A stretch of DNA of 64,000 nt from an uncultured Candidatus Saccharibacteria bacterium (GCA_964430945.1 CAYSHH010000003.1:4183-68182); one strand, 5' to 3'. Shown: positions 10,998 through 55,109, numbered from the stretch's first letter. Translations and numbers: made by a program. The notes: generated from the letters alone by a model not told the origin.

Positions 10998-11359
10998 TGG
11001 GTATTCAAATCGAATTCAATCCAGATTTGGCTCTCAGAAATATTTCTGAGTACACAAAAGGCAATCGAAAAAGGCAGGAGTGTATTCCGGCAAATCTTGA
11101 AGTTGGAAAAGTTTACGATTTTCTTAAAAAAGGTCAACGTATATTTTGGTTTGATGAAAGTGAATTTTGGTCTCACGGACAAATACCACTATATGAAACC
11201 AATGGTCACCAGCAACTTTCCCGACCAATTGCCAGTATTAAAATATTAGAAGTCACTCACTTTCTTGTTGATAAAGAAGTTTATACAAAAGGAAAATACA
11301 AAATTATGCAAATATTTAACGACCAAAAAATTCATTTTGAAGGGATGAAGAAAATATGA
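10994..11359 (+). CDS. Hypothetical 121-aa protein, copy 1 of a duplicated gene
   Basis: About 95% identical in aa and nt to 13680..14042. No family recognised; a PUA/ASCH-like fold would be a guess only. Confidence 0.7.
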   Translation: MMGIQIEFNPDLALRNISEYTKGNRKRQECIPANLEVGKVYDFLKKGQRIFWFDESEFWSHGQIPLYETNGHQQLSRPIASIKILEVTHFLVDKEVYTKGKYKIMQIFNDQKIHFEGMKKI

Positions 11360-13675: not shown

Positions 13676-14044
13676 TTTTATGGGTATTCAAATAGAATTC
13701 AATCCAGATTTGGCTCTCAGAAATATTTCTGAGTACAAAAAAGGCAATCGAAAAAGGCAGGAGTGTATTCCAACAAATCTTGAAGTTGGTAAAATATACA
13801 ATTTTCTTAAAAAAGGCCAACGTATATTTTGGTTTGATGAAAGTGAGTTTTGGTCTCACGGACAAATACCACTCTATGAAACCAATGGTCACCAGCAACT
13901 TTCCCGACCGATTGCTAGTATTAAAATATTAGAAGTCGCTCACTTTCTAGTTGATAAAGAAGTTTATACAAAAGGAAAATACAAAATTATGCAAATATTT
14001 AACGACCAAAAAATTCATTTTGAAGGGATGAAAAAGATATGAAC
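13676..14044 (+). repeat. Segmental direct duplication of 10990..11361 (about 370 bp, about 95% nt identity)
   Basis: Direct nucleotide comparison of the two copies, including the ATGA junction with the next gene. Confidence 0.85.
13680..14042 (+). CDS. Hypothetical 120-aa protein, copy 2 of the duplicated gene
   Basis: MGIQIEFNPDLALRNISEY... is nearly identical to 10994..11359. As with copy 1, it overlaps the downstream gene through the ATGA context. Confidence 0.7.
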   Translation: MGIQIEFNPDLALRNISEYKKGNRKRQECIPTNLEVGKIYNFLKKGQRIFWFDESEFWSHGQIPLYETNGHQQLSRPIASIKILEVAHFLVDKEVYTKGKYKIMQIFNDQKIHFEGMKKI

Positions 14045-33020: not shown

Positions 33021-33095
33021 TGGCAGCCTGTAGGGGAATCGAACCCCTGTTTTCAGCTTGAAAAGCTGACGTCCTAACCATTAGACGAACAGGCC
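33021..33095 (-). tRNA. tRNA-Glu (anticodon TTC)
   Basis: The reverse complement folds as a cloverleaf with anticodon loop ttTTCaa, a TpsiC arm ggttcgattcc and a 3' gCCA. Confidence 0.85.
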
Positions 33096-33138
33096 TTATT
33101 ATGATTTTTTAAAAACAATAGTGATTATTATATCAATA

Positions 33139-33705
33139 TTATTGTGGTATCGCAATGTCTTTTATTAAGTTATCGCTTTGATTTAAATTGTATTCGTAAA
33201 GATCAGAATATTTTCGTTGTTCATCGGCATTGGTAGCATTAGTATATTGGATCAATGCGTCTTTTGCTTTTTTTAAAAGCTCAAGAGATTTGACCATTTG
33301 ACTATTTATATCGTTAAATTTTTTATCAATTTTTAAATTATTAAATTTATTCATTCCTTCGTCAATCATCGATTCTAATTCATTGGATGCATTACTGGCC
33401 TCAGTGTCAGTAAAAATAGTTTTATATTTTATTTTATCCAAATAATCGTTAAATTTATCATTAATTGGTTTTCTGATTTTCAATACTTCATCTATATATA
33501 CCTCACCAGAAGTTATCATATCGTTACTTACATCGGCTACACTATTTAAATTATTAGAATCAGATATTATAATCGGTTCAGATGAACTTAAATCAGAAAA
33601 ATTTTTCTTTTGCAAATTCTTTTCCTGGGTATTTTCTTGTGTATAGTAATATATTGCGCCACCGACAAGTACTAATAATATTAGGGGTAAAATAACTTTT
33701 TTCAT
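33139..33705 (-). CDS. Membrane-anchored hypothetical protein
   Basis: N-terminal TM ILPLILLVLVGGAIYYY; the rest is polar. Confidence 0.45.
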   Translation of the reverse strand: MKKVILPLILLVLVGGAIYYYTQENTQEKNLQKKNFSDLSSSEPIIISDSNNLNSVADVSNDMITSGEVYIDEVLKIRKPINDKFNDYLDKIKYKTIFTDTEASNASNELESMIDEGMNKFNNLKIDKKFNDINSQMVKSLELLKKAKDALIQYTNATNADEQRKYSDLYEYNLNQSDNLIKDIAIPQ

Positions 33706-33737
33706 TTTTATTATATTAAGGTTAATTTATTGTAAGA

Positions 33738-33812
33738 TGGAGGGCGCTATGGGGATCGAACCCATGACAAACTGCTTAAGAGGCAGTTGCTCTACCACTG
33801 AGCTAAGCACCC
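33738..33812 (-). tRNA. tRNA-Lys (anticodon CTT)
   Basis: gggtgcttagctcagtggtagagc..., anticodon loop ctCTTaa, ggttcgatccc, CCA. Confidence 0.85.
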
Positions 33813-33919
33813 GCAATTTATTCTTGGGCAGATCTATTACAATGTCACAAATTAGAATTATAAAATACGTAAACAAATATTAATATTTGTAATTTATTCG
33901 AGTATTATACTATGGCATA

Positions 33920-33996
33920 TGGTGCTCTCAAGAGGAGTCGAACCTCTAACCTTCTGGTCCGAAGCCAGACGCTCTATCCAATTGAGCTATGAGAGC
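33920..33996 (-). tRNA. tRNA-Arg (anticodon TCG)
   Basis: gctctcatagctcaattggatagagc (Arg-type D arm), anticodon loop ctTCGga, ggttcgactcc, CCA. Confidence 0.75.
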
Positions 33997-34046
33997 TCAC
34001 ATTATCAAAATACTATCATGCAAATAATTTAGCGGGTTATAAAGGA

Positions 34047-34122
34047 TGGGGTGAACGATGGGATTTGAACCCACAACCACCAGAGCCACAATCTGGTGCT
34101 CTACCGTTGAGCTACGTCCACC
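34047..34122 (-). tRNA. tRNA-His (anticodon GTG) with G-1
   Basis: Extra 5' G pairing with C73, anticodon loop ttGTGgc, ggttcaaatcc, CCA. Confidence 0.85.
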
Positions 34123-34134
34123 ATATCTATAAGA

Positions 34135-34211
34135 TGGTGTCCGCGAGTGGATTCGAACCACTGACCTACAGCTTAGAAGGCTGTCGCTCTATCCAACTGA
34201 GCTACGCGGAC
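34135..34211 (-). tRNA. tRNA-Arg (anticodon TCT)
   Basis: gtccgcgtagctcagttggatagagc, loop ctTCTaa, ggttcgaatcc, CCA. Confidence 0.85.
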
Positions 34212-34273
34212 ATACTTCAAAAATATCGTTTCACGATATTTTCAAATTAAAAAATAATATTTTAAATTATTTT

Positions 34274-34349
34274 TGGAGCGGGTGAGCGGAATCGAACCGC
34301 CATAGCCAGCTTGGAAGGCTGGTACATTAACCGTTATGCTACACCCGCA
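34274..34349 (-). tRNA. tRNA-Gly (anticodon TCC)
   Basis: gcgggtgtagcataacggtta..., loop ctTCCaa, ggttcgattcc, CCA. Confidence 0.85.
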
Positions 34350-34560
34350 TATGATAATTTTTTAAAATCAAATCAAGTGTAAGACTAATTATATATTTTA
34401 AATCAAAATACTCTAATTTAAAACCAATTTATGGTCGGGCACAATCAACGCTCTTACAACTTTTTTCCTTACACAAACTCAGGATATTAATTTAAACTAT
34501 TCACTTAAACTAACCAAATAATATCAAAAAACTTGCGAGAAATAAAGAGTTAGAGATAGA

Positions 34561-34587
34561 AAAATAAAAAGAGACGAAAAGTCTCTT
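34561..34587 (-). terminator. Rho-independent terminator for 34617..35285
   Basis: aagagac-gaaaa-gtctctt with the T-tract on the minus strand. Confidence 0.7.
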
Positions 34588-34616
34588 CTTGAACTAAATA
34601 TGGTGACTGGTGATTT

Positions 34617-35285
34617 TTAATAAAGTTTGAATATTTCTTTTACAGTCTTCCGGGTAGCTTCAAATAATTGCCTATCTATTCTAATTTTTTCTTTTAATGT
34701 TTTTACAAGTAAAACTTTATTATTTTCCGACAGAAATGCTCTTTTATTCTCTTCGTATCTGGAGCGCCAATCCAACGCATCTTTTTTTAGTTTTACAGGT
34801 ACGGGCACTAAACGATCAAAAGAATGGCAGTTATTCATACTGAAGTATAGATTAAATTCCCAAACATAATACTTATCTGGATGTGGTACGGTATCATATT
34901 GTAGTACATCATGTAAATAGTGAAGCTCCTGTAACAATGTTACGCCTGCTGATCTAAAATATATAACTGCACGATCTTTGTCTAAGTCTTTTTTAGGGTA
35001 ACGTTCTCGCCATTTCCAATTTGTAAACACGCTGTCCCAGAAAAATCTCGAATCTAATGATAATTTCATCTTTACACCATGTTCTTTATAAAAATGCAAT
35101 AAACTTTGCTTGAATTGATTCAAATTACCCTTTTCTTCATAAAAATGTTTAAGGGCATGTTTGGCAAAATCGCTTTGATCCAAGATGATTGCTTCTTTTA
35201 TTAATTCTGCAGGGCAATGTTGAATATCTGGATTATTTGTAAGTAAATCAAAAAATGCATCTTCGGGTGTAAGTATTTTTGCCAT
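34617..35285 (-). CDS. Hypothetical protein (222 aa)
   Basis: Long ORF with RBS and terminator; no recognised motif. Confidence 0.5.
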   Translation of the reverse strand: MAKILTPEDAFFDLLTNNPDIQHCPAELIKEAIILDQSDFAKHALKHFYEEKGNLNQFKQSLLHFYKEHGVKMKLSLDSRFFWDSVFTNWKWRERYPKKDLDKDRAVIYFRSAGVTLLQELHYLHDVLQYDTVPHPDKYYVWEFNLYFSMNNCHSFDRLVPVPVKLKKDALDWRSRYEENKRAFLSENNKVLLVKTLKEKIRIDRQLFEATRKTVKEIFKLY

Positions 35286-35561
35286 CGTAATTCACTCCTT
35301 ATTTGCTATATTCGTAAAATTTTAAAATTCACGAAGTAACAAATAAAGAGCAATTATTAAGCAACAAAACTAGACCATAGTATTAAAAGAATATTATACT
35401 GTTAATGTAAAAATTAACTATTTAAAACAAGTTCCAACTTTCAAATACCTGTTGAATAAAAATAACTACTGAGTGGCTACTTTTAGCCAAAAATCACGTT
35501 TTTATTTTCTCTATCTGTAAACTTGACATATGTATCAAGTTTACGGTCGTAATAGATTAAC

Positions 35562-35639
35562 TGGTCGGGGTGCCGAGACTCGAACTCGGGACCTCTTGCT
35601 CCCAAAGCAAGCGCTCTAGCCAACTGAGCCACACCCCGC
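35562..35639 (-). tRNA. tRNA-Pro (anticodon TGG)
   Basis: cggggtgtggctcagttggctagagc, loop ttTGGga, agttcgagtct, CCA. Confidence 0.85.
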
Positions 35640-35718: not shown

Positions 35719-36522
35719 ATGAAAAAAATAATTTTACTAATTTCTATTATATTTGTCATTGTTCCATTGGCGGGATGTGAAGTCAAGAATGTTTCTGAAG
35801 ATGGAAACGAATATATATCTTCTCAGATAAATTTACCCAAAAACGAGAATAATGCAAAAGAAGAGAGCATTAAAGACACAATTGGCAATAGCTCAAACGA
35901 AGTAAAAACCCAAGTAGTGCTAAATGTGCCTTTCGCTGATCAAGCGCCAAATAAAAATTGGGGCGATCCATATCAAGAGGCTTGTGAAGAAACATCGATT
36001 ATTATGGCAAATGCTTTTATTAAAAATAATGGAACAGAAGATCTTGATAAAAGTTATATAAATGAACAAATTATTGAAATGGTGTCTTGGCAAGAGACAA
36101 ACATGGGCGGACATTTTGATCTAGATGCACAAAGTACTCTTGAACTATTTCAAAAATTTTATAATTATTCGGGCGGGCAAGTAGTCGTTATAAGTTCGGC
36201 AGATGATATCAAACAATACTTATCCGATGGGAAAATTATTATTGCACCGACGTCCGGTAGAAAACTTAAAAATCCATATTTCACACCGCCAGGTCCCGTA
36301 TATCACATGTTGGTGATAAAGGGTTACGATGGGAATAATTTTATCACAAATGACCCAGGCGTTTGGCAGGGAAAAAATTTTCAGTATCCGTCAGATAATC
36401 TATTTTTGTCAATTCAAGATTTGCCACCAGAGGCATTAGGAAAAACTGGATATATAAAATCACACCCAGATATTATGGGCAATAGTTCAAAACGGGTCAT
36501 AGTAATAGCAAAAAATTATTGA
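35719..36522 (+). CDS. Lipoprotein with C39-like (peptidase_C39_2/YvpB-like) cysteine peptidase domain
   Basis: Lipobox PLAGC. VLNVPFADQAPNKNWGDPYQEACEETSIIMANAF matches the C39-like Q...C(E)xTS motif. Downstream His (PGPVYHMLVIKGYDG) and Asp (NDPG) are present. Confidence 0.6.
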   Translation: MKKIILLISIIFVIVPLAGCEVKNVSEDGNEYISSQINLPKNENNAKEESIKDTIGNSSNEVKTQVVLNVPFADQAPNKNWGDPYQEACEETSIIMANAFIKNNGTEDLDKSYINEQIIEMVSWQETNMGGHFDLDAQSTLELFQKFYNYSGGQVVVISSADDIKQYLSDGKIIIAPTSGRKLKNPYFTPPGPVYHMLVIKGYDGNNFITNDPGVWQGKNFQYPSDNLFLSIQDLPPEALGKTGYIKSHPDIMGNSSKRVIVIAKNY

Positions 36523-38389: not shown

Positions 38390-38466
38390 TGGTACTCTCG
38401 AGGGGACTCGAACCTCTAATCTTTCCCTTAGGACGGGACTGCTTTATCCAATTAAGCTACGAGAGC
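38390..38466 (-). tRNA. tRNA-Arg (anticodon CCT, probable)
   Basis: Arg-type D arm gctctcgtagcttaattggataaagc, anticodon region gtCCTaa, ggttcgagtcc, CCA. The anticodon stem has one mismatch, so the isotype is less certain. Confidence 0.65.
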
Positions 38467-44019: not shown

Positions 44020-44046
44020 TTAATCGTAAAAAGTATATATTAAAAA

Positions 44047-44072
44047 ATCACCCATTCTCTGGGTGATTTTTT
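44047..44072. terminator. Bidirectional rho-independent terminator
   Basis: atcaccca-ttctc-tgggtgat flanked by A and T tracts. Confidence 0.75.
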
Positions 44073-44088
44073 AAATTAACAATTTTTG

Positions 44089-44165
44089 TGGTGGACGACA
44101 TAGGACTTGAACCTATAACCCCTTGCATGTCATGCAAGTGCTCTAACCAATTGAGCTAGCCGTCC
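44089..44165 (-). tRNA. tRNA-Val (anticodon GAC)
   Basis: ggacggctagctcaattggttagagc, loop atGACat, ggttcaagtcc, CCA. Confidence 0.85.
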
Positions 44166-44303
44166 GGGATGCAAACCTTAATATATTAATAATCTGCTAT
44201 CTAATATTATTTATTTGTAACTTATGTGATTGAACTTTCCCAATATATCATAAAACTTATTGATTTTCAATGAAAAATATGTTAATATCCTCTCATCAAA
44301 AAT

Positions 44304-44597
44304 TTGAACGAGGTGAAAAAAATGTTTTTTAACATGGACATTGTAGCAATGTTGATTTGTCTTTTCGCAATATGTTATATATACTGCAAAAAGAAAAATG
44401 TTTCAAAAGTCATTGAAAAGAAATTTCAAGGCATGGGGATTGAGTTGACAATCAATTCACGTATGATTGTCGTCTTTGCGATATTTCTCATGCCCATTTT
44501 GTGGCTATCGATAAGATTTTATGCTAGCTGGCTTATCCTACTGATTGTGCTGGCATTTTATCTGTCATCTTTAATTAAACTTTCAAGCCTAGAGTAA
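44304..44597 (+). CDS. Small 3-TM membrane protein
   Basis: 97-aa hydrophobic ORF with RBS gaggtg. Confidence 0.45.
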   Translation: MNEVKKMFFNMDIVAMLICLFAICYIYCKKKNVSKVIEKKFQGMGIELTINSRMIVVFAIFLMPILWLSIRFYASWLILLIVLAFYLSSLIKLSSLE

Positions 44598-44653
44598 TGA
44601 ATTATTCTAGGCTTAATAATACACACAAGCCGAGTATATGTTGCTCGGCTTTT

Positions 44654-45652
44654 TTAGTAGTCACCAAATCCCGACTCAAGTCTTTCAACGGTACCATTTG
44701 AATCAATAGTTCTATAATATCCTGGGTCACCACCTTGAAGACCCGTGTCGGAATAATCGCTAGACGATACGCTATAAGTTTCGCCGGTAGACGATGAGTG
44801 AACTGTCTCTTGACCAAGTATGGCTCTTTCTGACCAACTGTCAGATAAGCTTGCCTTATCTGATGTGTCGGATACTGATGTTGATGTATCAAAACCATCA
44901 TCTGCGCTTGGTGTAATCTGTGCTGTGCATCTTATAGAAAGAGCTACCTCGGATGCTAATCCGCCTTGAGAATCCCACTTATCTGTAGTTGTGGCGCTCT
45001 GATAATAACTCAAAACATACCCAGAATCATCAATCGGATATTTTTTATATAAACCTATGCCCTTGATAGATCTTCCTTGATTGGTTGCACTAAATTCGCG
45101 CATGATAAATCCACCTTCAACTTCTTCACCAGAGTTAGTAAAAGTATATCCGTCGTTTCCAAGTGCTTGCATGATAGTTGTAATTGCTTGATCTGGTTCG
45201 CCGTAAAGATTAAACAATATTGGGGCAATAAACCAGCCAGCACCGACTGTTTGGTCTGAATTGTATATATCTACCCCACGGCCAGATTGATCTGATGAAA
45301 TAGTCCAATCCTGAGGAGCTAACGCACTACAATATCCAGATGATTTAGGAACTAATTTTTGACTACTGTCGTCAATTGTTATGCTCTCTACAGTTGTATT
45401 AGATGTCGGTGATAAACTTGTAGTGGTCTCAGGTTTTTGAATCGGAGTATTACTGCTGTATGATGCAACTTGTTTTTCGTCTGCAACATTAAAGTCAGTG
45501 TCGTTGGTACCGATCCAATAAAAAACACCAAGTGCAATAAAAATTATTACGACCGTTAAAATAACATATTTTATTTTTCTTTTTTTGGCCGGATCATTTT
45601 TGTCTTCCGGCCCGGAATTTTCATAAAAATCACCCAAGTTGTTTGAGTCCAT
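44654..45652 (-). CDS. Membrane-anchored S/T-rich extracellular protein
   Basis: N-terminal TM (YVILTVVIIFIALGVFYWI), a Thr/Ser-rich linker and a C-terminal globular part. Confidence 0.5.
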   Translation of the reverse strand: MDSNNLGDFYENSGPEDKNDPAKKRKIKYVILTVVIIFIALGVFYWIGTNDTDFNVADEKQVASYSSNTPIQKPETTTSLSPTSNTTVESITIDDSSQKLVPKSSGYCSALAPQDWTISSDQSGRGVDIYNSDQTVGAGWFIAPILFNLYGEPDQAITTIMQALGNDGYTFTNSGEEVEGGFIMREFSATNQGRSIKGIGLYKKYPIDDSGYVLSYYQSATTTDKWDSQGGLASEVALSIRCTAQITPSADDGFDTSTSVSDTSDKASLSDSWSERAILGQETVHSSSTGETYSVSSSDYSDTGLQGGDPGYYRTIDSNGTVERLESGFGDY

Positions 45653-45684
45653 TTTCCCTCCTTATTTATAAATTAAAAAATATT

Positions 45685-46359
45685 TTAATTAGAAAGTAAC
45701 TTATCAATCTGTGCAGATAGATTAGAAAACGACGGATTGCTTTGATATTCAGTTCCATTAATATAAAATGTTGGAGTTCCAGCAAGACCCAATTCATCTA
45801 GTAATGTCTTAGAATCATCAATTTTTTTCTTTATTTCATCCGATACTCGATCAGAGTTGAATTTGTCCATATCTAGTCCAATATTCTGAGCAGCAGCAAC
45901 GATACCGTTTTCGTCATATTCACTAGCTTCAAATAATGCATCATGCATCTCCCATCCCTTACCCTGTAAATTAGCAGCTTCAATGGCATATGCGGCCGGT
46001 AGAGCATCTGCATGGTAACTCAATGGATATGGAAGATAACCAAATTGAACCTTATCTTTATATGCCTCGACAGTTTTTGCTATCTCAGGGTGAACCGATC
46101 TGCATGCAGGACACTCTATATCAGAAGCTTCGATAATAGTAACTTTTGAATCGCTTGGTCCGACAGTGATAGCAAGCTTTACCAGTTCATTATTTACATC
46201 ATCATTAGATTTTATGGTTTCTGCTTGAGAGGTGCTAGCGTTTTTTACAGTTCCACTATCTGTACTGGTTGGTTGATTATTTGAACAATTAGCACCAGTA
46301 AAAATCATTAAGCAAAAAAGCAGAGTCGAAGTAATTAAAATAATATTATTTTTTTTCAT
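45685..46359 (-). CDS. DsbA-like thiol:disulfide oxidoreductase (thioredoxin fold), secreted
   Basis: Signal peptide and CPAC active site (IEASDIECPACRSV). Confidence 0.75.
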   Translation of the reverse strand: MKKNNIILITSTLLFCLMIFTGANCSNNQPTSTDSGTVKNASTSQAETIKSNDDVNNELVKLAITVGPSDSKVTIIEASDIECPACRSVHPEIAKTVEAYKDKVQFGYLPYPLSYHADALPAAYAIEAANLQGKGWEMHDALFEASEYDENGIVAAAQNIGLDMDKFNSDRVSDEIKKKIDDSKTLLDELGLAGTPTFYINGTEYQSNPSFSNLSAQIDKLLSN

Positions 46360-46496
46360 AAATTCCTTTGTATTATTTTTTTATAAATTTTAAAAAAATT
46401 AATTTATATGTAATTTTATTAAACCAAATTCTGTCAGTAATTCAAGGTCCATAATGACAAAAGTAATTATTTAATTAACATTCATATATTTAATAA

Positions 46497-46525
46497 TTGA
46501 AAAAACCATTAATTTATGTTATAAT
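46497..46525 (+). promoter_or_regulatory. Sigma-70-like promoter of tmRNA
   Basis: TTGAAA -35 box, 17-nt spacer, TATAAT -10 box, ending 10 nt before the tmRNA 5' GGGGCC. Confidence 0.6.
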
Positions 46526-46535
46526 TGCACGTGTT

Positions 46536-46888
46536 TGGGGCCATATTGGTTTCGACAGAACATTAATAACTATTGTGTCATGCCGAGTGGGATTGAGCAC
46601 TTGTAATAAAATCAATCAAACTTTAAGTGCAAAAAACTTTGTAAACAAAGTAAAGACTGCTTTTGCAGGATTTAACTTTGCACCAGCTTTAGCCTAATAA
46701 CGCTTTAGCCGTCCTTGTACACAGCGGCCCGACCGTGTACTATGGGCGCCAAATTTCGGGCTGGATGCTCTAAAGATAGATTTGGTATAGAGTATCAAGA
46801 GATAACGAAATCATGTTTCTAAGCATGTATAAAAGCACGATAGTTCATTGTGTTTTGGACAGGAGTTCGACTCTCCTTGGCTCCACCA
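46536..46888 (+). ncRNA. ssrA: tmRNA (SsrA)
   Basis: 5' ggggccatattggtttcgacag... tRNA-like start. 3' end ggacaggagttcgactctccttggctccacca carries the T-arm and CCA. The internal tag frame gca aaa aac ... gct tta gcc taa taa encodes AKNFVNKVKTAFAGFNFAPALA plus a double stop. Confidence 0.9.
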
Positions 46889-46892
46889 AAAA
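46874..46892 (+). repeat. attL-like: 19-bp tmRNA 3' end (tccttggctccaccaaaaa), repeated at 49991..50009
   Basis: Perfect 19-bp direct repeat seen in the sequence. Confidence 0.8.
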
Positions 46893-46920
46893 AATTCTGA
46901 TGTATTTTCAGAATTTTTTT
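46892..46920 (+). terminator. tmRNA terminator
   Basis: aaattctga-tgtattt-tcagaattt followed by ttttt. Confidence 0.75.
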
Positions 46921-47237
46921 GTTGCAATTAAATATGTTAATTAAATTTAAAATAATTTCATTTAAAAAAGATTGTTTGCTAAAACTTACTTCTATCATTA
47001 AATTCTAACGTCCACTATTGTTTCTTTTTTTAATAAAGTCACATGAAAAATCAACAAACTCGACAAGGTCTTTGTTAAGTTTGTTTTGTTATATTATTAT
47101 CCACTCCTTTAATAAACATATTGAATCTAATATGTTATTGTGTTGAATTTTTAACTAGATATAGCAAGTATTGAAACAAAATTATTTTTATGCTAAGCTT
47201 GTGCTGATTATTTGTATATTAACAGGAGGCAGAATAA

Positions 47238-48509
47238 ATGCTAACTAAAACTTTCTATTTTCCAAATGGACACTATTTATTCGATGGAAGAAACTTGGAC
47301 ATCTATGAAATCAGAGAAGACGAAAAGATTCCTGAATTTAATTTTTCTGATTCTCATCAAGATACAAATTATTTTCTTAGAACTATAGTTTTGAATTTAA
47401 CATACAGCTGCAATTTAAAATGCAGTTATTGCTATGCAAACCAGGGAGCATATTGTCAACCAGGAATCAGTATGTCGTATGAGACTGCAAGGCAAGCAAT
47501 TGACTTGTTATTCGAGTCTGTTAGAAAGAATAGCGGAAATACAATGAGAATTGTTTTCTTCGGAGGCGAACCGCTTCTTTCTTATCAGCTCATAATAGAT
47601 ATTGTTAAATATGTTACACAAAAAAATATAGATAACTATGAAATTCAATATCTCATGACTACGAACGGGACTTTAATCAAAGAAGCGCAGGCAATTTTTT
47701 TTAAGAAAAACAAGTTTCAGATTATGGTAAGTATTGATGGAGACAAAATAACACATGACTCTTGTAGAATCTACGCAAATGGAGAAGGTTCATACCATGA
47801 TACTGTGTGTGCTGTTGAATTAATGATAAAAAAAGAGATCCCGCTAGAGGGAAGAATAACAATCGCAAACAATAACACGGATATATTAAAATCTGTTAAG
47901 CATCTTCGCAAAATTGGTCTTAAAAGAATAACTTTCGCAACAGACTATAATTTGTCACGTAGTGGCTTTGATAATTTTCTAAAATCTTTATCACTACTTG
48001 CAAGCTATTATTTATATTCAATTCAGAATGCAGACTATTTTGATATTTCCAATTTTACCGCACCCATTTCTTCAATTGTCACCAAAAGTAAAAAAATATT
48101 TCATTGTAGTGCTGGATTGTCATATCTTTCAGTTGGGGCTGACGGTTTAATATATCGTTGTCCTAGATTTACAGATAATAAGTTATTTCAAATTGGCAGA
48201 GTTGGAAAAAATTCTTTTGATATTGTCTCTCGGGAGATAGATAAATTCAGCCAAATTGTTAAGCATGGGGCACATGAAAGAACATTAGAATGTTCTGAAT
48301 GTCCTTATATTTTTCTGTGTGGCGGAAACTGTTACCACCATTCATTTACAAAAACTGGCAAGGAATTCAATGTGATTAGTCCAGAGTGTAAATGTAAACA
48401 TCTGATATATGATAATGCAATTAAAATTCTTTGCTTGCTGAACCCAAAGACAAGTCGCGATTTTCTCAATTTCTTGAGTGGTTCCTGGCAGACTAAAGGA
48501 GGTGAATAA
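47238..48509 (+). CDS. Radical SAM enzyme with C-terminal SPASM domain (anSME/peptide-maturase family)
   Basis: CNLKCSYC (CxxxCxxC). SPASM cysteines CSAGLSYLSVGADGLIYRC...CSECPYIFLCGGNC...CKCKH. SD aggagg. Confidence 0.85.
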   Translation: MLTKTFYFPNGHYLFDGRNLDIYEIREDEKIPEFNFSDSHQDTNYFLRTIVLNLTYSCNLKCSYCYANQGAYCQPGISMSYETARQAIDLLFESVRKNSGNTMRIVFFGGEPLLSYQLIIDIVKYVTQKNIDNYEIQYLMTTNGTLIKEAQAIFFKKNKFQIMVSIDGDKITHDSCRIYANGEGSYHDTVCAVELMIKKEIPLEGRITIANNNTDILKSVKHLRKIGLKRITFATDYNLSRSGFDNFLKSLSLLASYYLYSIQNADYFDISNFTAPISSIVTKSKKIFHCSAGLSYLSVGADGLIYRCPRFTDNKLFQIGRVGKNSFDIVSREIDKFSQIVKHGAHERTLECSECPYIFLCGGNCYHHSFTKTGKEFNVISPECKCKHLIYDNAIKILCLLNPKTSRDFLNFLSGSWQTKGGE

Positions 48510-48513
48510 ATAA

Positions 48514-48624
48514 GTGAAAAAGCTTAATTTTGGTTTAACACCAGAAGATAAAGAAAAACTTAAAGCTAATGCTTTAAAGGCCAATGCTTCGTGTGAAGGC
48601 GGACCCGAAGGAGCAGCTGGCTAA
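48514..48624 (+). CDS. 36-aa peptide, candidate RiPP precursor (MKKLNFGLTPEDKEKLKANALKANASCEGGPEGAAG)
   Basis: GTG start 8 nt after SD aaggaggtg, which lies within the last codons of the rSAM gene. It has its own terminator and a K/E-rich leader-like N-terminus. The C-terminus is Cys/Gly-rich with an internal GG. Confidence 0.55.
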   Translation: MKKLNFGLTPEDKEKLKANALKANASCEGGPEGAAG

Positions 48625-48645
48625 AATTACCGTTACGCTATTAGT

Positions 48646-48673
48646 AGGACCTTGAATAGAGGTCCTTTTTTTT
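48646..48673 (+). terminator. Rho-independent terminator after the peptide gene
   Basis: aggacc-ttgaataga-ggtcct followed by ttttttt. Confidence 0.8.
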
Positions 48674-48687
48674 ATAATATTTATTAT

Positions 48688-49281
48688 ATGAAATATACTT
48701 ACACAAATAAATACTGCGCCTTTTACCAACTTCCATTTTGTTGTGCTCCCGCAACATTACAATGGGTAATGTATCGAAATGGATTAAATATGATAGATCA
48801 AGAATTAATTGGAAAAGAATTAGGATTACGTTTACCCCAAAAAGCCAAACCCTTTTTTAGCAATGAAGATTTAATATTTTTACCAGACAACACCTCTATT
48901 AGTTTTGGAACTCAAATATTTATTAAAAAATTTAAGATTAATAGTTTTTTTAAAAAATATAATATGCCCTTAAAAATTTCGAAACAATATTTTTTCAAAA
49001 CGAAAAAAGGATTAAAAATTTTTTTGATAAATAATCTTAAGAAAAAAAATGATATAGTTTTAAGATTTAATAATAAATTGATTTCTAGTAATAAAAAAGG
49101 CTGTGGTCATTTGGCATTAATTTATAGTTTGAATGCTCACAACGATATAGTCGGAATTGGTGATCCAGATCCACCTTTCTATAAAACTATGACTTTAAAT
49201 GATATTTTGTTTTCAATATCTAATAAAATCGATGGAACTCAACGAGGATTATTTTATATTGAGAAAGTGAAAAAGTCTTAA
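48688..49281 (+). CDS. Peptidase C39-like cysteine protease domain protein (standalone)
   Basis: YQLPFCCAPATLQWVMYRNG matches the C39 Q....C(G)xAxLxMvxxYxG region. The His (GCGHLALIYSL, like gHfvVl) and the downstream Asp (DIVGIGDPD) are present. Start taken at 48688. Confidence 0.55.
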   Translation: MKYTYTNKYCAFYQLPFCCAPATLQWVMYRNGLNMIDQELIGKELGLRLPQKAKPFFSNEDLIFLPDNTSISFGTQIFIKKFKINSFFKKYNMPLKISKQYFFKTKKGLKIFLINNLKKKNDIVLRFNNKLISSNKKGCGHLALIYSLNAHNDIVGIGDPDPPFYKTMTLNDILFSISNKIDGTQRGLFYIEKVKKS

Positions 49282-49707
49282 TAATTATCTAATTTAGCTT
49301 AGTATCGGTTGTAGGCCATGGAGTAGATAGTTTAGCCGTCAGTGGCATGAAAAGAGTAAAAATAGTCGTGCTCTTCTAATAGACGAGTAAAAATAAAGAC
49401 GGGTATTTTCCGTCATTATTTTTTAAATGTACTGCTAAAAAAATCCGATTCATATCTTAAAATAAATGGGCTATAGATAATGATTTATTTTTCGGCGTTT
49501 AACATATCAATAACAGATATAGTGTAGAAATTTTTTTCATTTAATAGATTAACCGTTCTATTTCTATGCTTTTCGGCATCTATTTTCGTTTTTAATTTTT
49601 TGTTGTCTTTTATAAGCAAATAATTGCAATACTATATCCTCTCATTTATTACGAAATTACAACTGGTTATTTAAGTTTAAAACTATCATGATGTGCTTAT
49701 AAAAATA

Positions 49708-49910
49708 ATGATGGAAAAATCTTTAAGGATTTGGGAAAGAAACTGAAAGCTTTCAGAGAGGAAGCTGGGCTTACTCAATCTCAAGTTGCCAAATCAACTA
49801 GTATTTCTGTTAATTATTATGCAAGAATTGAAAGGGGCGAAGAATACCCTACTTACGAAGTTCTCCATCAGATAAAAAAGGCACTAAAAATAAAGTCGAA
49901 TCTAGTTTAG
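49708..49910 (+). pseudogene. XRE-family HTH regulator, frameshifted
   Basis: ATG at 49708 gives MMEKSLRIWERN*. The +1 frame from 49731 encodes (L)GKKLKAFREEAGLTQSQVAKSTSISVNYYARIERGEEYPTYEVLHQIKKALKI (XRE HTH). The shift sits in the run gaaaaatc. Confidence 0.55.
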
Positions 49911-49990
49911 ATCCTCTTTATCCTTATATACTTTCTTTAATTTCAGTGCCCAATCGATTATTATTTCAAAGAAAGTGTTCCAATTTTTTA

Positions 49991-50009
49991 TCCTTGGCTC
50001 CACCAAAAA
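49991..50009 (+). repeat. attR-like copy of the tmRNA 3' end (tccttggctccaccaaaaa)
   Basis: Identical 19-mer, immediately followed by a terminator hairpin. Confidence 0.8.
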
Positions 50010-50037
50010 GAATCAGGATAGTTTCTGATTCTTTTTT
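50010..50037 (+). terminator. Terminator hairpin after attR (probably the original tmRNA terminator)
   Basis: gaatcag-gatagtttct-ctgattc followed by tttttt. Confidence 0.65.
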
Positions 50038-50150
50038 GTCTGAGAGTGATTAGAAGGCACTTTAAAAACGCATTTTATGGTAGCGATGGCGGTATGAAAT
50101 AGGTATTTATTTCATGTTGACTAGCTATCATAAAGAAAGAAGGTAATAAA

Positions 50151-50414
50151 ATGAAAAAGTTTGAAAGAGAAATTCAAATCATCAAAGAAGAACTGCGCAA
50201 TGTTCAAATCGAAAACTTTGGATGGGGGATCGCGACATGATATATATATATTATTGAAGGAAAATACTACAAAAACGGAGGATATCAAACAGTCATATTC
50301 TCTGTTCAAATATCACCCGATAAAACTATCAAGCTAATAGATTTGGGAGCTGATCCTAAAAATAAATGCAAACAAATGGAATATGAATGTATAGGCGAAG
50401 TAAAATATCTTTAA
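50151..50414 (+). pseudogene. Small ORF (about 87 codons) interrupted by an in-frame TGA at 50238
   Basis: MKKFEREIQIIKEELRNVQIENFGWGIAT*YIYIIEGKYYKNGGYQTVIFSVQISPDKTIKLIDLGADPKNKCKQMEYECIGEVKYL*. RBS gaaggtaa upstream. Confidence 0.3.
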
Positions 50415-50474
50415 TTCTTGTAACAATGTATATTTCTTGAACAAAAAAAGAGAAATTAAGGTTAGGTAATTTCA

Positions 50475-50507
50475 AAAAACAAAATCGGCTAAACCGCCGA
50501 TTTTTTA
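50475..50507. terminator. Bidirectional terminator downstream of truB
   Basis: aatcggc-taaacc-gccgatt flanked by A and T tracts. Confidence 0.7.
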
Positions 50508-51167
50508 GTTGGCTTTATCTTTCCAAAACTTCTCAAATCTATCTAAATCGTAAGCATTATTAATATGATAATCACCTACACGAGTGCGTTTAAGATTTGC
50601 GAGATAGCCTCCAGTACCAAGTTTCTCTCCAATATCACGTGCTAAGGACCGGATATATGTACCTGGACCACAAGTCACTTGTATCTCGAGATATGGCCAC
50701 CTATACGAAATTAGTTCAATATTTTTTATTTCGATAATGCGTGCTTTCATTACAACCTTTTGCCCAGCACGAACTCGTCGACATGCAGGTTTCCCATTGA
50801 TTTTAATTGCACTATAAACAGGTGGTACTTGTTTGATAACACCAATAAAACACTTTAAAACACGATTAATTTCCGTACGCGTAATTTTACTATCGTACTC
50901 TATAATTATCTTATCACCTTCTTCGTCGTCAGTTGTACTTGTTTCGCCTAGCTTAATTTTGGCGATATATTCTTTTTCGGTCTTCTCAATTTTTCCCAAC
51001 TCGCGAGTTCCTTCGCGGGTAATTCCCACCACTAAAATTCCACTTGCCAATGGATCAAGGGTGCCAGCATGACCAATTTTTTTAATACCCGTAATTTTTC
51101 TTAGCCTTGCGATCATGTCAAAGCTTGTTGGTCCTTTTGGTTTAATTATCGCGTAGATATGTTTCAT
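50505..51167 (-). CDS. truB: tRNA pseudouridine(55) synthase
   Basis: MKHIYAIIKPKGPTSFDMIARLRKITGIKKIGHAGTLDPLASGILVVG (catalytic Asp in GTLDP). Confidence 0.9.
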   Translation of the reverse strand: MKHIYAIIKPKGPTSFDMIARLRKITGIKKIGHAGTLDPLASGILVVGITREGTRELGKIEKTEKEYIAKIKLGETSTTDDEEGDKIIIEYDSKITRTEINRVLKCFIGVIKQVPPVYSAIKINGKPACRRVRAGQKVVMKARIIEIKNIELISYRWPYLEIQVTCGPGTYIRSLARDIGEKLGTGGYLANLKRTRVGDYHINNAYDLDRFEKFWKDKAN

Positions 51168-51212
51168 ATATTTTCTTTACTAAAGAGTGTATTTTACCTT
51201 ATTATATAAAAT

Positions 51213-51794
51213 ATGAAAAGAAGTGACAAAGAAAAAATACTTATTGATTCAACTTTCGCAGCCAAACGACTATTGGGCGCGTATTTAATTAGACAAATAG
51301 ACAAGCATAGATTAATAGGTAAAATCGTCGAAACAGAAGTGTATCACCAAGACGATCCAGCATCCCACTCGTGTCATGGTCGTACAAAACGCTGTGAGAT
51401 AATGTTTGGTACACCAGGATTTTCTTATATCTATCTAGTCTATGGTATGTACTACTGTTTAAATATTGTAACTGGCAAAGAAGGTGAAGGAGCCGCAGTC
51501 CTGATCCGTGCGCTGGAGCCGATCAAAGGAATTGATACAATGAAGATATATCGAAAGATGGATGATATAAAAAATCTTACCAATGGTCCAGGAAAAGTTT
51601 GTCAGGCTTTAAATATCACAAATAAAGAGAACAAAAAATATTTATTGGACAATAAATCCTCGTTTTATATAAAATTTAATAATCAGATTCAAGATAATAA
51701 AATAATATATACAACACGTATCGGTATTTCCAAAGCAAAAGATATGCTCATGAGATTTTATGTTAAAGATTCAAAATATGTGTCAATCAAATAA
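51213..51794 (+). CDS. mpg: DNA-3-methyladenine glycosylase (Mpg/AAG family)
   Basis: LLGAYLIRQIDKHRLIGKIVETEVYHQDDPASHSCHGRTKRCEIMFGTPGFSYIYLVYGMYYCLNIV...NGPGKVCQALNI. Confidence 0.85.
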   Translation: MKRSDKEKILIDSTFAAKRLLGAYLIRQIDKHRLIGKIVETEVYHQDDPASHSCHGRTKRCEIMFGTPGFSYIYLVYGMYYCLNIVTGKEGEGAAVLIRALEPIKGIDTMKIYRKMDDIKNLTNGPGKVCQALNITNKENKKYLLDNKSSFYIKFNNQIQDNKIIYTTRIGISKAKDMLMRFYVKDSKYVSIK

Positions 51795-54413: not shown

Positions 54414-55109
54414 CTATGAAGAGTTTGATGGTTTTTGCGGACAATGGCATTTATTTAGTACAGAATCAAGAATATATCTATACGATCCGGGTTGAAAATC
54501 TGTACCCAGTATAAGTTTATTGATACTGTCCAAAATATTTTTGGCAAAATTTATGTAAAACTGTTCATCGAGTTGTGTGTCCACTCGCGGCAGAATTTCT
54601 CCTAATAAATTTGGAATAACTTTTTTCCAAATTCGTAAAATTTCCCTACTGCAAATCACGTGGTATTTGTTGGACACGTATGTTTGTCCAGACATATTTA
54701 AGCCAAATTTAAAAGTTTTTGATTTATTTTCAACAGTCCTGATGTAATGATGTAACGAAATAGCCACATTCCAGCACATCATTCGTGCCTCGCGTTTAAT
54801 ACCGCAAAAGCAACTTCTCTCATCGTGCTCTGTTTCGAGAATCCCACAGAACCTTAAGGTTCTTTTGACTCTTGAATATTGTCCAAGCAATGCTGTCGCA
54901 TAAGACAGAAGCTCGCTAAACGGACAGACACCCACTGGCCTTCCGCATTGGAGTAAAAAAACATTTCTCATTATCCAAGGAGGGCTAGCATTACTTACAT
55001 GGTGTTGAAATAATTCACTTTGGTTACATTTATCAAGACCGTAACCAAACAAAGTATTTCTTGGAACGAATTCATTTAGTCTATTCCTGTTAGGAAAACA
55101 GCTTTTCAT
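54414..55109 (-). CDS. Cys-rich hypothetical protein, divergent from the tmk-dcd-thyX operon
   Basis: 231 aa with about 12 Cys (CGRPVGVCPFSE...RFCGILETEHDERSCFCG...CHCPQ). A metal or Fe-S ligand role is possible. Family not recognised. Confidence 0.45.
   Translation of the reverse strand: MKSCFPNRNRLNEFVPRNTLFGYGLDKCNQSELFQHHVSNASPPWIMRNVFLLQCGRPVGVCPFSELLSYATALLGQYSRVKRTLRFCGILETEHDERSCFCGIKREARMMCWNVAISLHHYIRTVENKSKTFKFGLNMSGQTYVSNKYHVICSREILRIWKKVIPNLLGEILPRVDTQLDEQFYINFAKNILDSINKLILGTDFQPGSYRYILDSVLNKCHCPQKPSNSS

What the first reader, a model, noticed from the sequence alone, without database searches (positions are those of the whole stretch)
46874..50037. About 3.1-kb insertion into the 3' end of tmRNA, flanked by a perfect 19-bp direct repeat and carrying no integrase
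tccttggctccaccaaaaa occurs at the tmRNA 3' terminus (46874..46892) and again at 49991..50009, each followed by a different terminator hairpin. Duplication of the ssrA 3' end is the standard signature of site-specific integration at tmRNA. Here the bounded segment holds only the rSAM-peptide pair, the C39-like peptidase and a frameshifted XRE repressor-like gene. There is no integrase or excisionase, so it is either a decayed island or a minimal element mobilised in trans. The tmRNA gene is functionally restored by the island-borne copy of its end.
Basis: seen in the sequence. Interest (0 to 1): 0.8.

Follow-up and report, generated by a model that had tools for sequence, protein, structure and literature searches.

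The report
Decayed genomic island at tmRNA gene
A 3.1-kb stretch after the tmRNA gene of a Patescibacteria (CPR) genome is most likely the worn-down remnant of a mobile defence island that once inserted there and now carries a small peptide-modification gene cluster; this is a known kind of genome scar seen here in a little-studied phylum.

Summary
TCCTTGGCTCCACCAAAAA occurs only at 46874-46892 (the last 15 nt of an intact tmRNA plus AAAA) and at 49991-50009. Each copy is followed by a different strong terminator hairpin.

The insertion reading is largely supported.
- A related species (L173) has the same upstream flank, tmRNA, terminator and truB, but no island and no second repeat.
- Another relative (L074) shares the right junction and flank but carries different cargo: a PLD nuclease, a 128-aa gene and type I HsdR.
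- A third (L091) has two tandem repeat copies.

The segment is a mosaic, not a minimal element.
- The rSAM/36-aa precursor/196-aa cassette occurs elsewhere in CPR genomes at unrelated sites.
- 49362-49601 is a PLD pseudogene with three stops.
- The XRE gene has lost its ATG rather than being frameshifted.
Both repeat copies are therefore under selection, so perfect identity does not imply a recent event.

No integrase was found in the segment, in the part of the window scanned, or within 10 kb in nine related islands.

Verdict: a decayed, remodelled ssrA island, a new member of a known kind (Dehalococcoides ssrA islands, CIMEs). Moderate interest.

The parts
46497..46525 (+). tmRNA promoter-like site (TTGAAA, 17-nt spacer, TG, TATAAT)
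   Evidence: 11 of 12 consensus matches, ending 11 nt before the tmRNA 5' end.
46537..46888 (+). tmRNA gene (ssrA), intact, with CCA encoded
   Evidence: ARAGORN. Rfam RF00023 scores 133 bits over the full model. It is 86-88% identical to the tmRNAs of relatives L075 and L173.
46874..46892 (+). Left repeat (attL-like core): last 15 nt of tmRNA plus AAAA
   Evidence: family D4.
46887..46921 (+). Terminator hairpin after the left repeat, on the island side
   Evidence: -14.7 kcal/mol, z-score -5.9; inverted repeat I25.
47238..48509 (+). Radical SAM/SPASM peptide maturase, 423 aa, PapB/QhpD-like
   Evidence: Pfam Radical_SAM, Fer4_12 and SPASM. NCBIfam best matches are rSAM_PapB and quino_hemo_SAM, both below their equivalog cut-offs. 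Homologues of 40-50% identity sit in the same three-gene cassette in other CPR contigs.
48514..48624 (+). 36-aa precursor peptide (GTG start) with C-terminal core SCEGGPEGAAG
   Evidence: The ORF is. Homologous 36-aa ORFs follow the rSAM gene in L003, L004 and L006, and one is readable in L002. The conserved motif is CEGGxEGxxG.
48646..48675 (+). Intrinsic terminator after the precursor gene
   Evidence: 8-pair stem followed by a T-run.
48691..49281 (+). 196-aa protein of the cassette, possibly a papain-fold (C39-like) peptidase
   Evidence: No Pfam, NCBIfam, PADLOC or PHROG hit. Q13, C17/C18, H140 and D158 are invariant in 4 homologues. The L002 homologue has a faint PF13529 hit. Profile comparison and PDB search were not significant, and the AlphaFold2 model was unusable.
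49398..49414 (.). Terminator-like hairpin matched on both strands, after the cassette
49362..49601 (-). Pseudogene fragment of a PLD-family (DrmC/MkoC-like) nuclease: residues 13-93 of about 239, with three in-frame stops
   Evidence: blastx against the L074 PLD protein gives 59% identity, E = 3e-29. DNA homology between the window and L074 starts at 49360. The L074 protein matches PLDc_2, MkoC and DrmC.
49731..49910 (+). XRE-family HTH gene resembling a restriction-modification control protein. The ancestral ATG is lost, leaving a possible TTG start; homology to relatives begins at 49701.
   Evidence: Pfam HTH_3. It is 86% identical to L074 XRE with pN/pS about 0.1. PADLOC matches are HTH_VI, capH and Control_protein. 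The family has 927 members at E <= 1e-8; those that carry a source name come from Patescibacteria-group bacteria.
49902..50006 (-). Conserved 34-aa ORF (LVEPRIKNWNTFFEIIIDWALKLKKVYKDKEDLN). It converges on XRE, overlapping it by 9 nt, and its first five codons are the reverse complement of the tmRNA 3' end.
   Evidence: ORF list. It is conserved in 23 of 87 sources searched (the window plus 22 loci), with changes mostly at third codon positions. pN/pS is 0.15-0.26.
49991..50009 (+). Right repeat (attR-like core)
   Evidence: Homology among islands of this family stops exactly at ...CCACCA.
50005..50036 (+). Terminator hairpin after the right repeat, shared with L074 and presumed to be the original tmRNA terminator
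   Evidence: -15.2 kcal/mol, z-score -5.2. Alignment with L074.
50152..50400 (+). Chromosomal flank: disrupted copy of a 119-aa gene that is intact in L074
   Evidence: Relative to L074 it shows an internal deletion and a stop.
50505..51167 (-). truB, the first clearly housekeeping gene to the right. It anchors synteny with L074, L075 and L173.
   Evidence: Pfam TruB_N. Homologues of 75-78% identity.

Best explanation
The segment 46893-49990 is the decayed and remodelled remnant of a genomic island that integrated by site-specific recombination into the 3' end of the tmRNA gene in an ancestor of this Patescibacteria lineage.

What is shown:
- The two 19-bp copies sit where attL and attR would. 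The left one completes the tmRNA and is followed by an island-side terminator. The right one is followed by the terminator and flank that lead to truB.
- The original island belonged to a CPR-wide family of defence islands. Their right end is a conserved module: a 34-aa ORF, an XRE/control-protein-like gene, a PLD nuclease and a gene of about 125 aa. Restriction-modification, Shedu or BREX-like genes follow.
- In this genome only the right-most 650 bp or so of that island survives: the small ORF, the XRE gene without its ATG, and the first third of the PLD gene with three stops.
- The rest has been replaced by a 2.1-kb peptide-modification (RiPP) cassette: a PapB-like radical SAM maturase, a 36-aa precursor and a putative peptidase. 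This cassette occurs at unrelated sites in other CPR genomes.

What is inferred:
- An integrase once catalysed the insertion and has since been lost.
- The element is now fixed and inherited vertically.
- The repeat stays perfect because one copy is tmRNA and the other is the start of a selected ORF.
For: 1. The duplicated tmRNA 3' end bounds the segment and is not chance.
2. An island-free allele exists. L173 (TruB 75% identical) has the same upstream flank, tmRNA, terminator, two small genes, truB and the start of MPG. It has no XRE, PLD, small ORF or RiPP genes and no second core.
3. L074 (TruB 77%) has the same right junction and flank but different cargo: an intact PLD gene, a 128-aa gene and HsdR.
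4. L091 has tandem cores 868 bp apart. The second is the identical 19-mer with a truncated small ORF, as expected from accretion at an att site.
5. Decay is visible: the PLD pseudogene and the lost XRE start codon.
6. Every core copy in this group of relatives is followed at once by a strong terminator, as is the real tmRNA end in L173.
7. Pairs of near-identical modules have unrelated right flanks that diverge exactly at CCACCA: L092/L093 at 98% identity, L094/L096 at 89%, L087/L095 at 84%. Conversely, L094 and L097 share a right flank but carry different modules.
8. The RiPP cassette sits in four other genomic contexts with no tRNA or tmRNA nearby.
9. The general rule that islands split t(m)RNA genes and restore them, leaving a displaced fragment at the far end, is stated in PMC4383910. 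Dehalococcoides shows 20-bp ssrA repeats, tandem islands and integrase-less members (PMC3146451).
Against: - No integrase, serine recombinase or transposase was found in the segment or in the ORFs between 2.5 and 36.5 kb of the window that were scanned.
- None was found within up to 10 kb to the left of the module in nine related islands.
- No related island outside this group of close relatives has a tmRNA or a second core within 10 kb.
- In distant family members the terminal GTCCACCA could simply be the ORF start (Met/Leu/Val-Val-Asp).
- In L104 and L108 an aminoacyl-tRNA synthetase gene starts 10-20 nt beyond the terminus, which does not look like a t(m)RNA downstream region.
- GC content does not differ from the surroundings.
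- TruB and MPG identities do not settle whether the empty site in L173 is ancestral or a secondary loss.
- L173 has an extra 160-aa gene between tmRNA and the flank, so it is not a clean empty site.
Confidence: 0.6

Rival explanations
1. The segment is a cis-mobilisable element (CIME). It lacks recombination genes but keeps functional attL and attR, and it can still be excised and integrated by a cognate integrase encoded elsewhere in the genome or on an incoming related island.
For: - The 19-bp repeats are perfect and there is no integrase between them.
- This matches the CIME definition in PMC6323972 and the integrase-less ssrA islands of Dehalococcoides (PMC3146451).
- L091 shows tandem cores, consistent with accretion.
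- The Logan contig L075 ends exactly at the tmRNA CCA. This is compatible with several alternative continuations after the tmRNA in that population.
Against: - The perfection of the repeat is explained without mobility, because both copies are under selection: one as tmRNA, the other as the ORF start.
- The right junction and its flank are shared by descent with L074, whose DNA is about 74% identical over the shared stretch.
- Both Logan contigs from run SRR13007709 that were retrieved (L172 and L001) carry the occupied junctions. No contig with an empty or circular junction was among them.
- No integrase was seen in the ORFs scanned between 2.5 and 36.5 kb of the window or in any related island.
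Confidence: 0.15
2. There was no site-specific integration. The small ORF/XRE/PLD module is a conserved boundary of a defence-gene hot spot downstream of tmRNA. Cargo is swapped by homologous or illegitimate recombination, and the likeness of the ORF start to the tmRNA end has another origin, such as an old local duplication or microhomology-mediated rearrangement seeded by the shared TCCACCA.
For: - The second repeat is the start of a conserved ORF found across CPR genomes, always beginning NTG GTG GA(C/G).
- Right flanks are housekeeping genes and left flanks are defence genes, with no recombinase.
- A leuS-like gene lies just to the right in L104 and L108, and a leucyl-tRNA synthetase gene lies about 1.5 kb to the right in L092. 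This hints at a stable chromosomal position in some lineages.
Against: - Given the conserved TCCACCA, a match of 8 further nt to the genome's own tmRNA is very unlikely by chance, roughly 1 in 65,000 by my own estimate.
- Close relatives carry 13-15 of 15 matches.
- Every core is followed by its own terminator.
- Tandem cores occur in L091.
- Module homology breaks sharply at CCACCA between 98%-identical copies.
- An island-free tmRNA-truB locus exists.
Confidence: 0.15
3. The island family moves without a classical integrase. A module protein, for example the PLD-family enzyme (a superfamily that works through a covalent phospho-histidine intermediate) or the unassigned protein of about 125 aa, catalyses recombination at Ala-acceptor-type 3' ends (G[G/C]TCCACCA).
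For: - No tyrosine or serine recombinase lies next to any of nine islands.
- The PLD gene and the ~125-aa gene are always adjacent to the terminus.
- GGGTCCACCA is a genuine tRNA-Ala 3' end in the L087 organism.
Against: - The PLD protein resembles the defence nucleases DrmC and MkoC and is usually followed by restriction-modification or other defence genes, which fits a defence role.
- The left ends of the islands, where integrases of t(m)RNA islands usually sit, were never sampled.
- No circular form or second core was seen outside this group of close relatives.
Confidence: 0.07

Closest known systems
Dehalococcoides ssrA-specific genomic islands (McMurdie et al. 2011, PMC3146451)
   Same: - The islands lie directly downstream of the single-copy tmRNA gene in a small, streamlined genome.
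- They are bounded by ssrA and a roughly 20-bp direct repeat of its 3' end.
- Tandem arrays of repeats occur (seen here in relative L091).
- Extra conserved sequence lies on the island side next to the right repeat.
- Some islands lack the integration module and were proposed to be cis-mobilisable or fixed.
- Cargo varies between strains.
   Different: - Those islands carry a CcrB-like serine recombinase module (DsiB) next to attL. No recombinase of any kind was found here or in related CPR islands.
- The conserved sequence beside the right repeat here is a protein-coding ORF plus an XRE/PLD module.
- The cargo here is defence or RiPP genes rather than reductive dehalogenases.
Cis-mobilisable elements (CIMEs), as defined for streptococcal ICE derivatives (definition quoted in PMC6323972)
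   Same: The segment is flanked by intact attL- and attR-like repeats, lacks integration and transfer genes, and plausibly derives from a larger element by deletion.
   Different: - No parental ICE or IME with a cognate integrase is known for this lineage.
- Mobilisation is untested.
- The shared old junction with L074 argues for fixation rather than current mobility.
tRNA/tmRNA-targeting islands and prophages with tyrosine integrases (Islander, PMC4383910; from my own knowledge, Williams 2002 and 2003 on sublocations in tRNA and tmRNA genes)
   Same: The target is the 3' end of tmRNA. The identity block runs from the 3' side of the T arm through CCA, so the gene is restored, and the displaced fragment marks the far end.
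   Different: There is no integrase and no compositional contrast. The displaced fragment doubles as the start of a conserved ORF.
Ranthipeptide and QhpD-type radical SAM/SPASM peptide clusters (PapB family, NCBIfam NF047865)
   Same: The cargo maturase matches rSAM_PapB and quino_hemo_SAM best. The precursor has a single Cys followed by Glu residues (CEGGPEG), the kind of Cys-Asp/Glu pairing these enzymes cross-link by thioether bonds (this chemistry is from my own knowledge).
   Different: Scores are far below the equivalog cut-offs (232 against 340 bits). The 36-aa precursor family is unannotated, and the chemistry is untested.

Membership tests
Site-specifically integrated t(m)RNA genomic island | Lies immediately 3' of an intact tRNA or tmRNA gene | tested here: met
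   The tmRNA is at 46537-46888 and the segment starts at 46889-46893.
Site-specifically integrated t(m)RNA genomic island | Far end marked by a direct repeat of the 3' part of the target gene | tested here: met
   A 19-bp perfect repeat, 15 nt of it tmRNA; 0 of 100 shuffles gave 2 matches.
Site-specifically integrated t(m)RNA genomic island | Encodes an integrase (tyrosine or serine recombinase) | tested here: not met
   Pfam and NCBIfam scans of all ORFs in the segment found none. None was found in the ORFs scanned between 2.5 and 36.5 kb of the window or in nine related islands.
Site-specifically integrated t(m)RNA genomic island | Absent from the same locus in related genomes (empty site) | tested here: met
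   L173 has the same upstream flank, tmRNA, terminator, two small genes and truB, with no island genes and no second core. Caveats: it carries an extra 160-aa gene, and the phylogenetic polarity is unresolved.
Site-specifically integrated t(m)RNA genomic island | Excision to a circular form and regeneration of attB | not testable with these tools
   No read data were available. The two Logan contigs retrieved from run SRR13007709 both carry occupied junctions.
Cis-mobilisable element (CIME) | Retains attL and attR but lacks integration and transfer genes | tested here: met
Cis-mobilisable element (CIME) | Derived from, and mobilised by, a related element with a cognate integrase | tested here: inconclusive
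   A larger related island exists (L074), but no integrase-bearing relative was found. Mobilisation cannot be tested here.
Dehalococcoides-type ssrA-GI | DsiB/CcrB-like serine recombinase integration module adjacent to attL | tested here: not met
   No Resolvase or Recombinase domain was found in the segment. The left ends of intact relatives were not sampled.
Dehalococcoides-type ssrA-GI | Tandem arrays of ssrA 3'-end repeats downstream of ssrA | tested here: inconclusive
   The window has only two copies. Relative L091 has two island-end cores 868 bp apart, but its tmRNA is not on the contig.
Radical SAM/SPASM RiPP cluster (PapB/ranthipeptide-like) | rSAM maturase with a SPASM domain next to a short Cys-containing precursor conserved with it | tested here: met
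   Pfam and NCBIfam. The precursor motif CEGGxEGxxG is conserved in five loci. The NCBIfam score is below the equivalog cut-off, so this is a related family, not PapB itself.
Peptidase C39-like (for the 196-aa protein) | Significant match to a C39 profile or fold with a Cys/His catalytic pair | tested here: inconclusive
   There is no Pfam hit. hhalign against the window's own C39_2 protein gave E = 0.15. The PDB search found nothing and the AlphaFold2 model had pLDDT 31. Only invariant Q, C, H and D residues and a faint PF13529 hit in L002 support it.

The most novel reading that the evidence does not exclude
The small-ORF/XRE/PLD module marks a widespread family of defence islands in Patescibacteria that insert at Ala-acceptor-type RNA 3' ends (tmRNA or tRNA-Ala, G[G/C]TCCACCA) without any classical integrase. 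In this reading the recombination core is embedded in the start codon region of a conserved 34-aa ORF, and a module protein (the PLD-family enzyme or the unassigned ~125-aa protein) acts as the recombinase. The window would then hold a stripped-down member of a new class of integrative element.
Probability: 0.1. Interest if true: 0.8.

Novelty: new member of a known kind. Interest (0 to 1): 0.4.

Why it matters
Islands at the tmRNA gene are a classic route of gene gain. My literature search found no description of such an island in Patescibacteria/CPR, whose genomes are tiny and whose mobile elements are poorly known.

This locus, with its relatives, shows three things:
- the tmRNA 3' end is a variable site in one CPR group, with at least three states among four related genomes;
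- the same conserved island end (34-aa ORF, XRE, PLD) borders restriction-modification, Shedu and BREX-like gene sets in many CPR lineages;
- small cargo such as a radical SAM peptide cassette can replace most of an island while its ends persist.

It also gives a practical caution. A perfect att-like repeat can be kept by selection on a gene that overlaps it, so perfection alone is not evidence of recent or ongoing mobility.

If the integrase-less reading were right, it would point to a new integration mechanism. That is unlikely on present evidence.

Tried and rejected
1. The genome-contig scan with the 23-nt tmRNA 3' end returned only tRNA-Ala genes of Moraxellaceae and others, because the tmRNA end mimics tRNA-Ala.
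2. An exact look-up of the rSAM protein found nothing. My first TruB look-up used the wrong end of a minus-strand ORF and was repeated correctly.
3. Viral-contig scans with XRE, PLD, the attR-flank 19-mer, the 196-aa family and the rSAM protein gave only generic XRE hits or nothing. There is no sign of a phage origin.
4. No tRNA or tmRNA lies next to the RiPP cassette in other genomes, so the cassette is not itself a tmRNA-targeting element.
5. I searched related islands for tmRNA, a second core or an integrase. All were negative within the 10 kb available.
6. I considered that the region upstream of the right repeat (GGTGTTCCA...) was a degenerate T arm. It cannot form a T stem and encodes the conserved WNT motif of the small ORF, so I rejected this.
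7. A chance origin of the repeat is rejected.
8. An assembly artefact is rejected, because separately assembled Logan contigs cover both junctions.
9. Single-sequence structure prediction of the 196-aa protein gave pLDDT 31, so no fold search was run.
10. A two-gene comparison (TruB, MPG) to polarise the empty site gave conflicting signals.

Full report
**1. Observation**

The 19-mer TCCTTGGCTCCACCAAAAA occurs exactly twice in the 64-kb window, at 46874-46892 and 49991-50009. There are no further matches even with three mismatches, and no shuffle reached two matches. With mismatches the repeat extends to 22 of 24 nt.

The first copy is the end of a full-length tmRNA at 46537-46888. ARAGORN finds a tag peptide and Rfam RF00023 scores 133 bits over the whole model. 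A good promoter match lies just upstream. The repeat is therefore 15 nt of tmRNA (part of the T-stem 3' strand, the acceptor 3' strand and ACCA) plus four A.

Each copy is followed at once by a different, strong A-tract/stem/T-tract hairpin, at -14.7 and -15.2 kcal/mol with z-scores near -5 to -6.

Two Logan contigs from run SRR13007709 reproduce both junctions at 100% identity. L172 equals 44034-47134 and L001 equals 47817-51468. The structure is not an artefact of one assembly.

The host is a low-GC member of Patescibacteria (CPR), judging from the source names of TruB homologues. GC content shows no contrast across the segment.

**2. What lies between the repeats**

Reading left to right:
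- a terminator and 316 bp of non-coding DNA;
- a 423-aa radical SAM/SPASM maturase whose best NCBIfam matches are PapB and QhpD-type thioether maturases, below their cut-offs;
- a 36-aa ORF, followed by a terminator;
- a 196-aa protein with no family match, followed by a terminator-like hairpin;
- at 49362-49601 on the minus strand, a fragment 59% identical to residues 13-93 of a PLD-family nuclease, with three in-frame stops (E = 3e-29);
- an XRE-type HTH gene;

No ORF has an integrase, recombinase, excisionase or transposase domain.

The XRE gene is not frameshifted. Compared with relatives, its ATG has mutated to ATA and three bases were inserted, leaving a TTG as a possible start. Its coding sequence is still strongly constrained, with pN/pS about 0.1.

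**3. The cassette is separate cargo**

Homologues of the rSAM enzyme (40-50% identity) are followed by a 36-aa ORF in L003, L004, L005 and L006, and one is readable in L002. A further ORF follows that is homologous to the 196-aa protein in L002, L003 and L006. These lie in four other CPR genomic contexts, next to folate genes, pilus genes or a histidine kinase. No tRNA or tmRNA is nearby.

The precursors share a C-terminal CEGGxEGxxG motif. This is a small, patchily distributed peptide-modification (RiPP) cassette, not a tmRNA-targeting element.

The 'C39-like' label for the third gene rests on invariant Q, C, H and D residues and a faint Pfam hit in one homologue. Profile, PDB and structure tests were inconclusive.

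**4. The right 650 bp is an old island end**

L074 (TruB 77% identical) is collinear with the window from smpB through MPG, truB and a 119-aa gene up to the right repeat and its terminator. It continues inward through the small ORF, the XRE gene and the first 280 bp of the PLD gene, at about 74% DNA identity from window 49360 onward.

Beyond that point L074 has an intact PLD gene (DrmC/MkoC-like), a 128-aa gene and a type I HsdR gene. The window has the RiPP cassette instead.

The module of small ORF, XRE, PLD and a gene of about 125 aa recurs in many CPR contigs. Type I or type III restriction-modification, Shedu, Dcm/Vsr or BREX-like genes lie on its left, and housekeeping genes on its right.

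The window therefore keeps only the stump of such a defence island.

**5. The right repeat is also a gene start**

The stretch between the XRE stop codon and the right repeat is conserved even in distant relatives, with changes mostly at third codon positions of the minus strand. pN/pS is 0.15-0.26.

This 34-aa ORF always begins NTG GTG GA(C/G), which is the reverse complement of (C/G)TCCACCAN. In the window its first five codons are the reverse complement of the tmRNA end.

Both repeat copies are therefore under purifying selection. The repeat's perfection does not date the event.

In close relatives the core matches the tmRNA end at 13 of 15 positions (L074), 14 of 15 (L091 copy 1) and 15 of 15 plus AAAA (L091 copy 2).

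**6. Evidence that this is an insertion site**

- L173 (TruB 75% identical) has the homologous upstream flank and a tmRNA ending ...CTCCTTAGCTCCACCA, followed by a terminator, a 160-aa gene, a 142-aa gene weakly homologous to the 119-aa flank gene (E = 2e-4), truB and the start of MPG. It has no XRE, PLD, small ORF or RiPP genes and no second core.
- L091 carries two cores 868 bp apart, each followed by its own terminator. The second sits with a truncated small ORF, as expected from successive insertions at one att site.
- Module copies that are 98% (L092/L093), 89% (L094/L096) and 84% (L087/L095) identical lose all similarity exactly after ...CCACCA. L094 and L097 share a right flank but hold different modules.
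- L075 has the tmRNA in the opposite orientation next to truB, and its contig stops exactly at CCA.

Four related genomes thus show at least three states at this locus.

**7. What speaks against a simple story**

- No recombinase was found in the segment, in the ORFs scanned between 2.5 and 36.5 kb of the window (the remaining ORFs of the window were not run against Pfam), or within up to 10 kb to the left of the module in nine related islands.
- No related locus outside this group of close relatives has a tmRNA or a second core within reach.
- In L104 and L108 an aminoacyl-tRNA synthetase gene starts 10-20 nt beyond the terminus.
- In distant members the terminal GTCCACCA may simply be the ORF start. 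Against that, the tRNA-Ala of the L087 organism really does end in GGGTCCACCA. Whether each island end copies its own host's Ala-acceptor RNA stays open.
- TruB and MPG identities disagree on whether L173 is an outgroup.

**8. Interpretation**

The best account (about 0.6) is an old site-specific integration of a defence island at ssrA. It was followed by loss of the recombination genes and most of the cargo, decay of the PLD gene and the XRE start codon, and replacement of the interior by a RiPP cassette. The ends persist because they are functional sequences.

The rivals are:
- a still-mobilisable CIME (about 0.15);
- a recombination hot spot with no integrase-mediated origin (about 0.15);
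- an integrase-less mechanism using a module protein (about 0.07).

**9. Comparison with known systems**

The closest described system is the family of ssrA-specific islands of Dehalococcoides. [quoted passage not shown]

The general principle of t(m)RNA islands is stated in PMC4383910, and the CIME definition in PMC6323972.

This locus fails the integrase criterion of both island families. It meets the formal CIME definition, but without any evidence of mobilisation.

It is a new member of a known kind. It is notable mainly for its phylum, for the att core that overlaps a gene start, and for the conserved XRE/PLD boundary module of CPR defence islands.

Noticed in passing
window 50152-50400 (+): The gene just outside the right repeat is a disrupted copy of a 119-aa gene that is intact in L074. 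It has an internal deletion of about 100 bp and a premature stop. A very divergent positional homologue of 142 aa sits next to truB in L173.
   Followed up: partly
window 48514-48624, with L002, L003, L004 and L006: The 36-aa precursors of the rSAM cassette share a strictly conserved C-terminal core, CEGGxEGxxG, with a single Cys. This suggests one Cys-Glu thioether cross-link made by a PapB/QhpD-like enzyme. The family is unannotated.
   Followed up: partly
window 35719-36522 (+): A second, clear Peptidase_C39_2 family protein of 267 aa (E = 2e-10) lies 11 kb upstream, unrelated in sequence to the 196-aa cassette protein.
   Followed up: partly
window 10994-11359 and 13680-14042 (+): Two nearly identical paralogues of 120-121 aa (MGIQIEFNPDLALRNISEY...) lie 2.7 kb apart. 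Function is unknown.
   Followed up: no
window 54414-55109 (-): A 231-aa ORF of odd composition fills the gap between smpB and the thymidylate kinase gene. Relative L075 has a 457-aa HD-domain gene in that position. It may be a degraded gene or non-coding DNA.
   Followed up: no
L075 8251-10240: In this relative the tmRNA lies next to truB but points away from it, inverted relative to the window. The Logan contig ends exactly at the tmRNA CCA, which may reflect alternative continuations after the tmRNA in that population.
   Followed up: partly
L091 1207-1221 and 2075-2093: Two island-end cores lie 868 bp apart and flank a 180-aa gene of unknown function with Cys pairs near its C-terminus. The second core is identical to the window's 19-mer and keeps only a truncated small ORF. 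A MazE-like gene follows.
   Followed up: partly
L087 19566-19641 (-): The tRNA-Ala(tgc) of this CPR organism ends in ...GTCGGGTCCACCA, the same GGTCCACCA that ends the defence-island module 9 kb away on the other strand.
   Followed up: no
L104 and L108, with L092 (right flanks): In L104 and L108 the module abuts the start of an aminoacyl-tRNA synthetase gene (leuS-like by its N-terminus). In L092 a leucyl-tRNA synthetase gene lies about 1.5 kb away. This hints at a second conserved chromosomal position for these islands.
   Followed up: no
window 33021-35638, 38390-38466 and 44089-44165 (-): Nine tRNA genes, all on the minus strand, lie upstream of the tmRNA. None is tRNA-Ala, so the genome's tRNA-Ala 3' end could not be compared with the repeat.
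   Followed up: no
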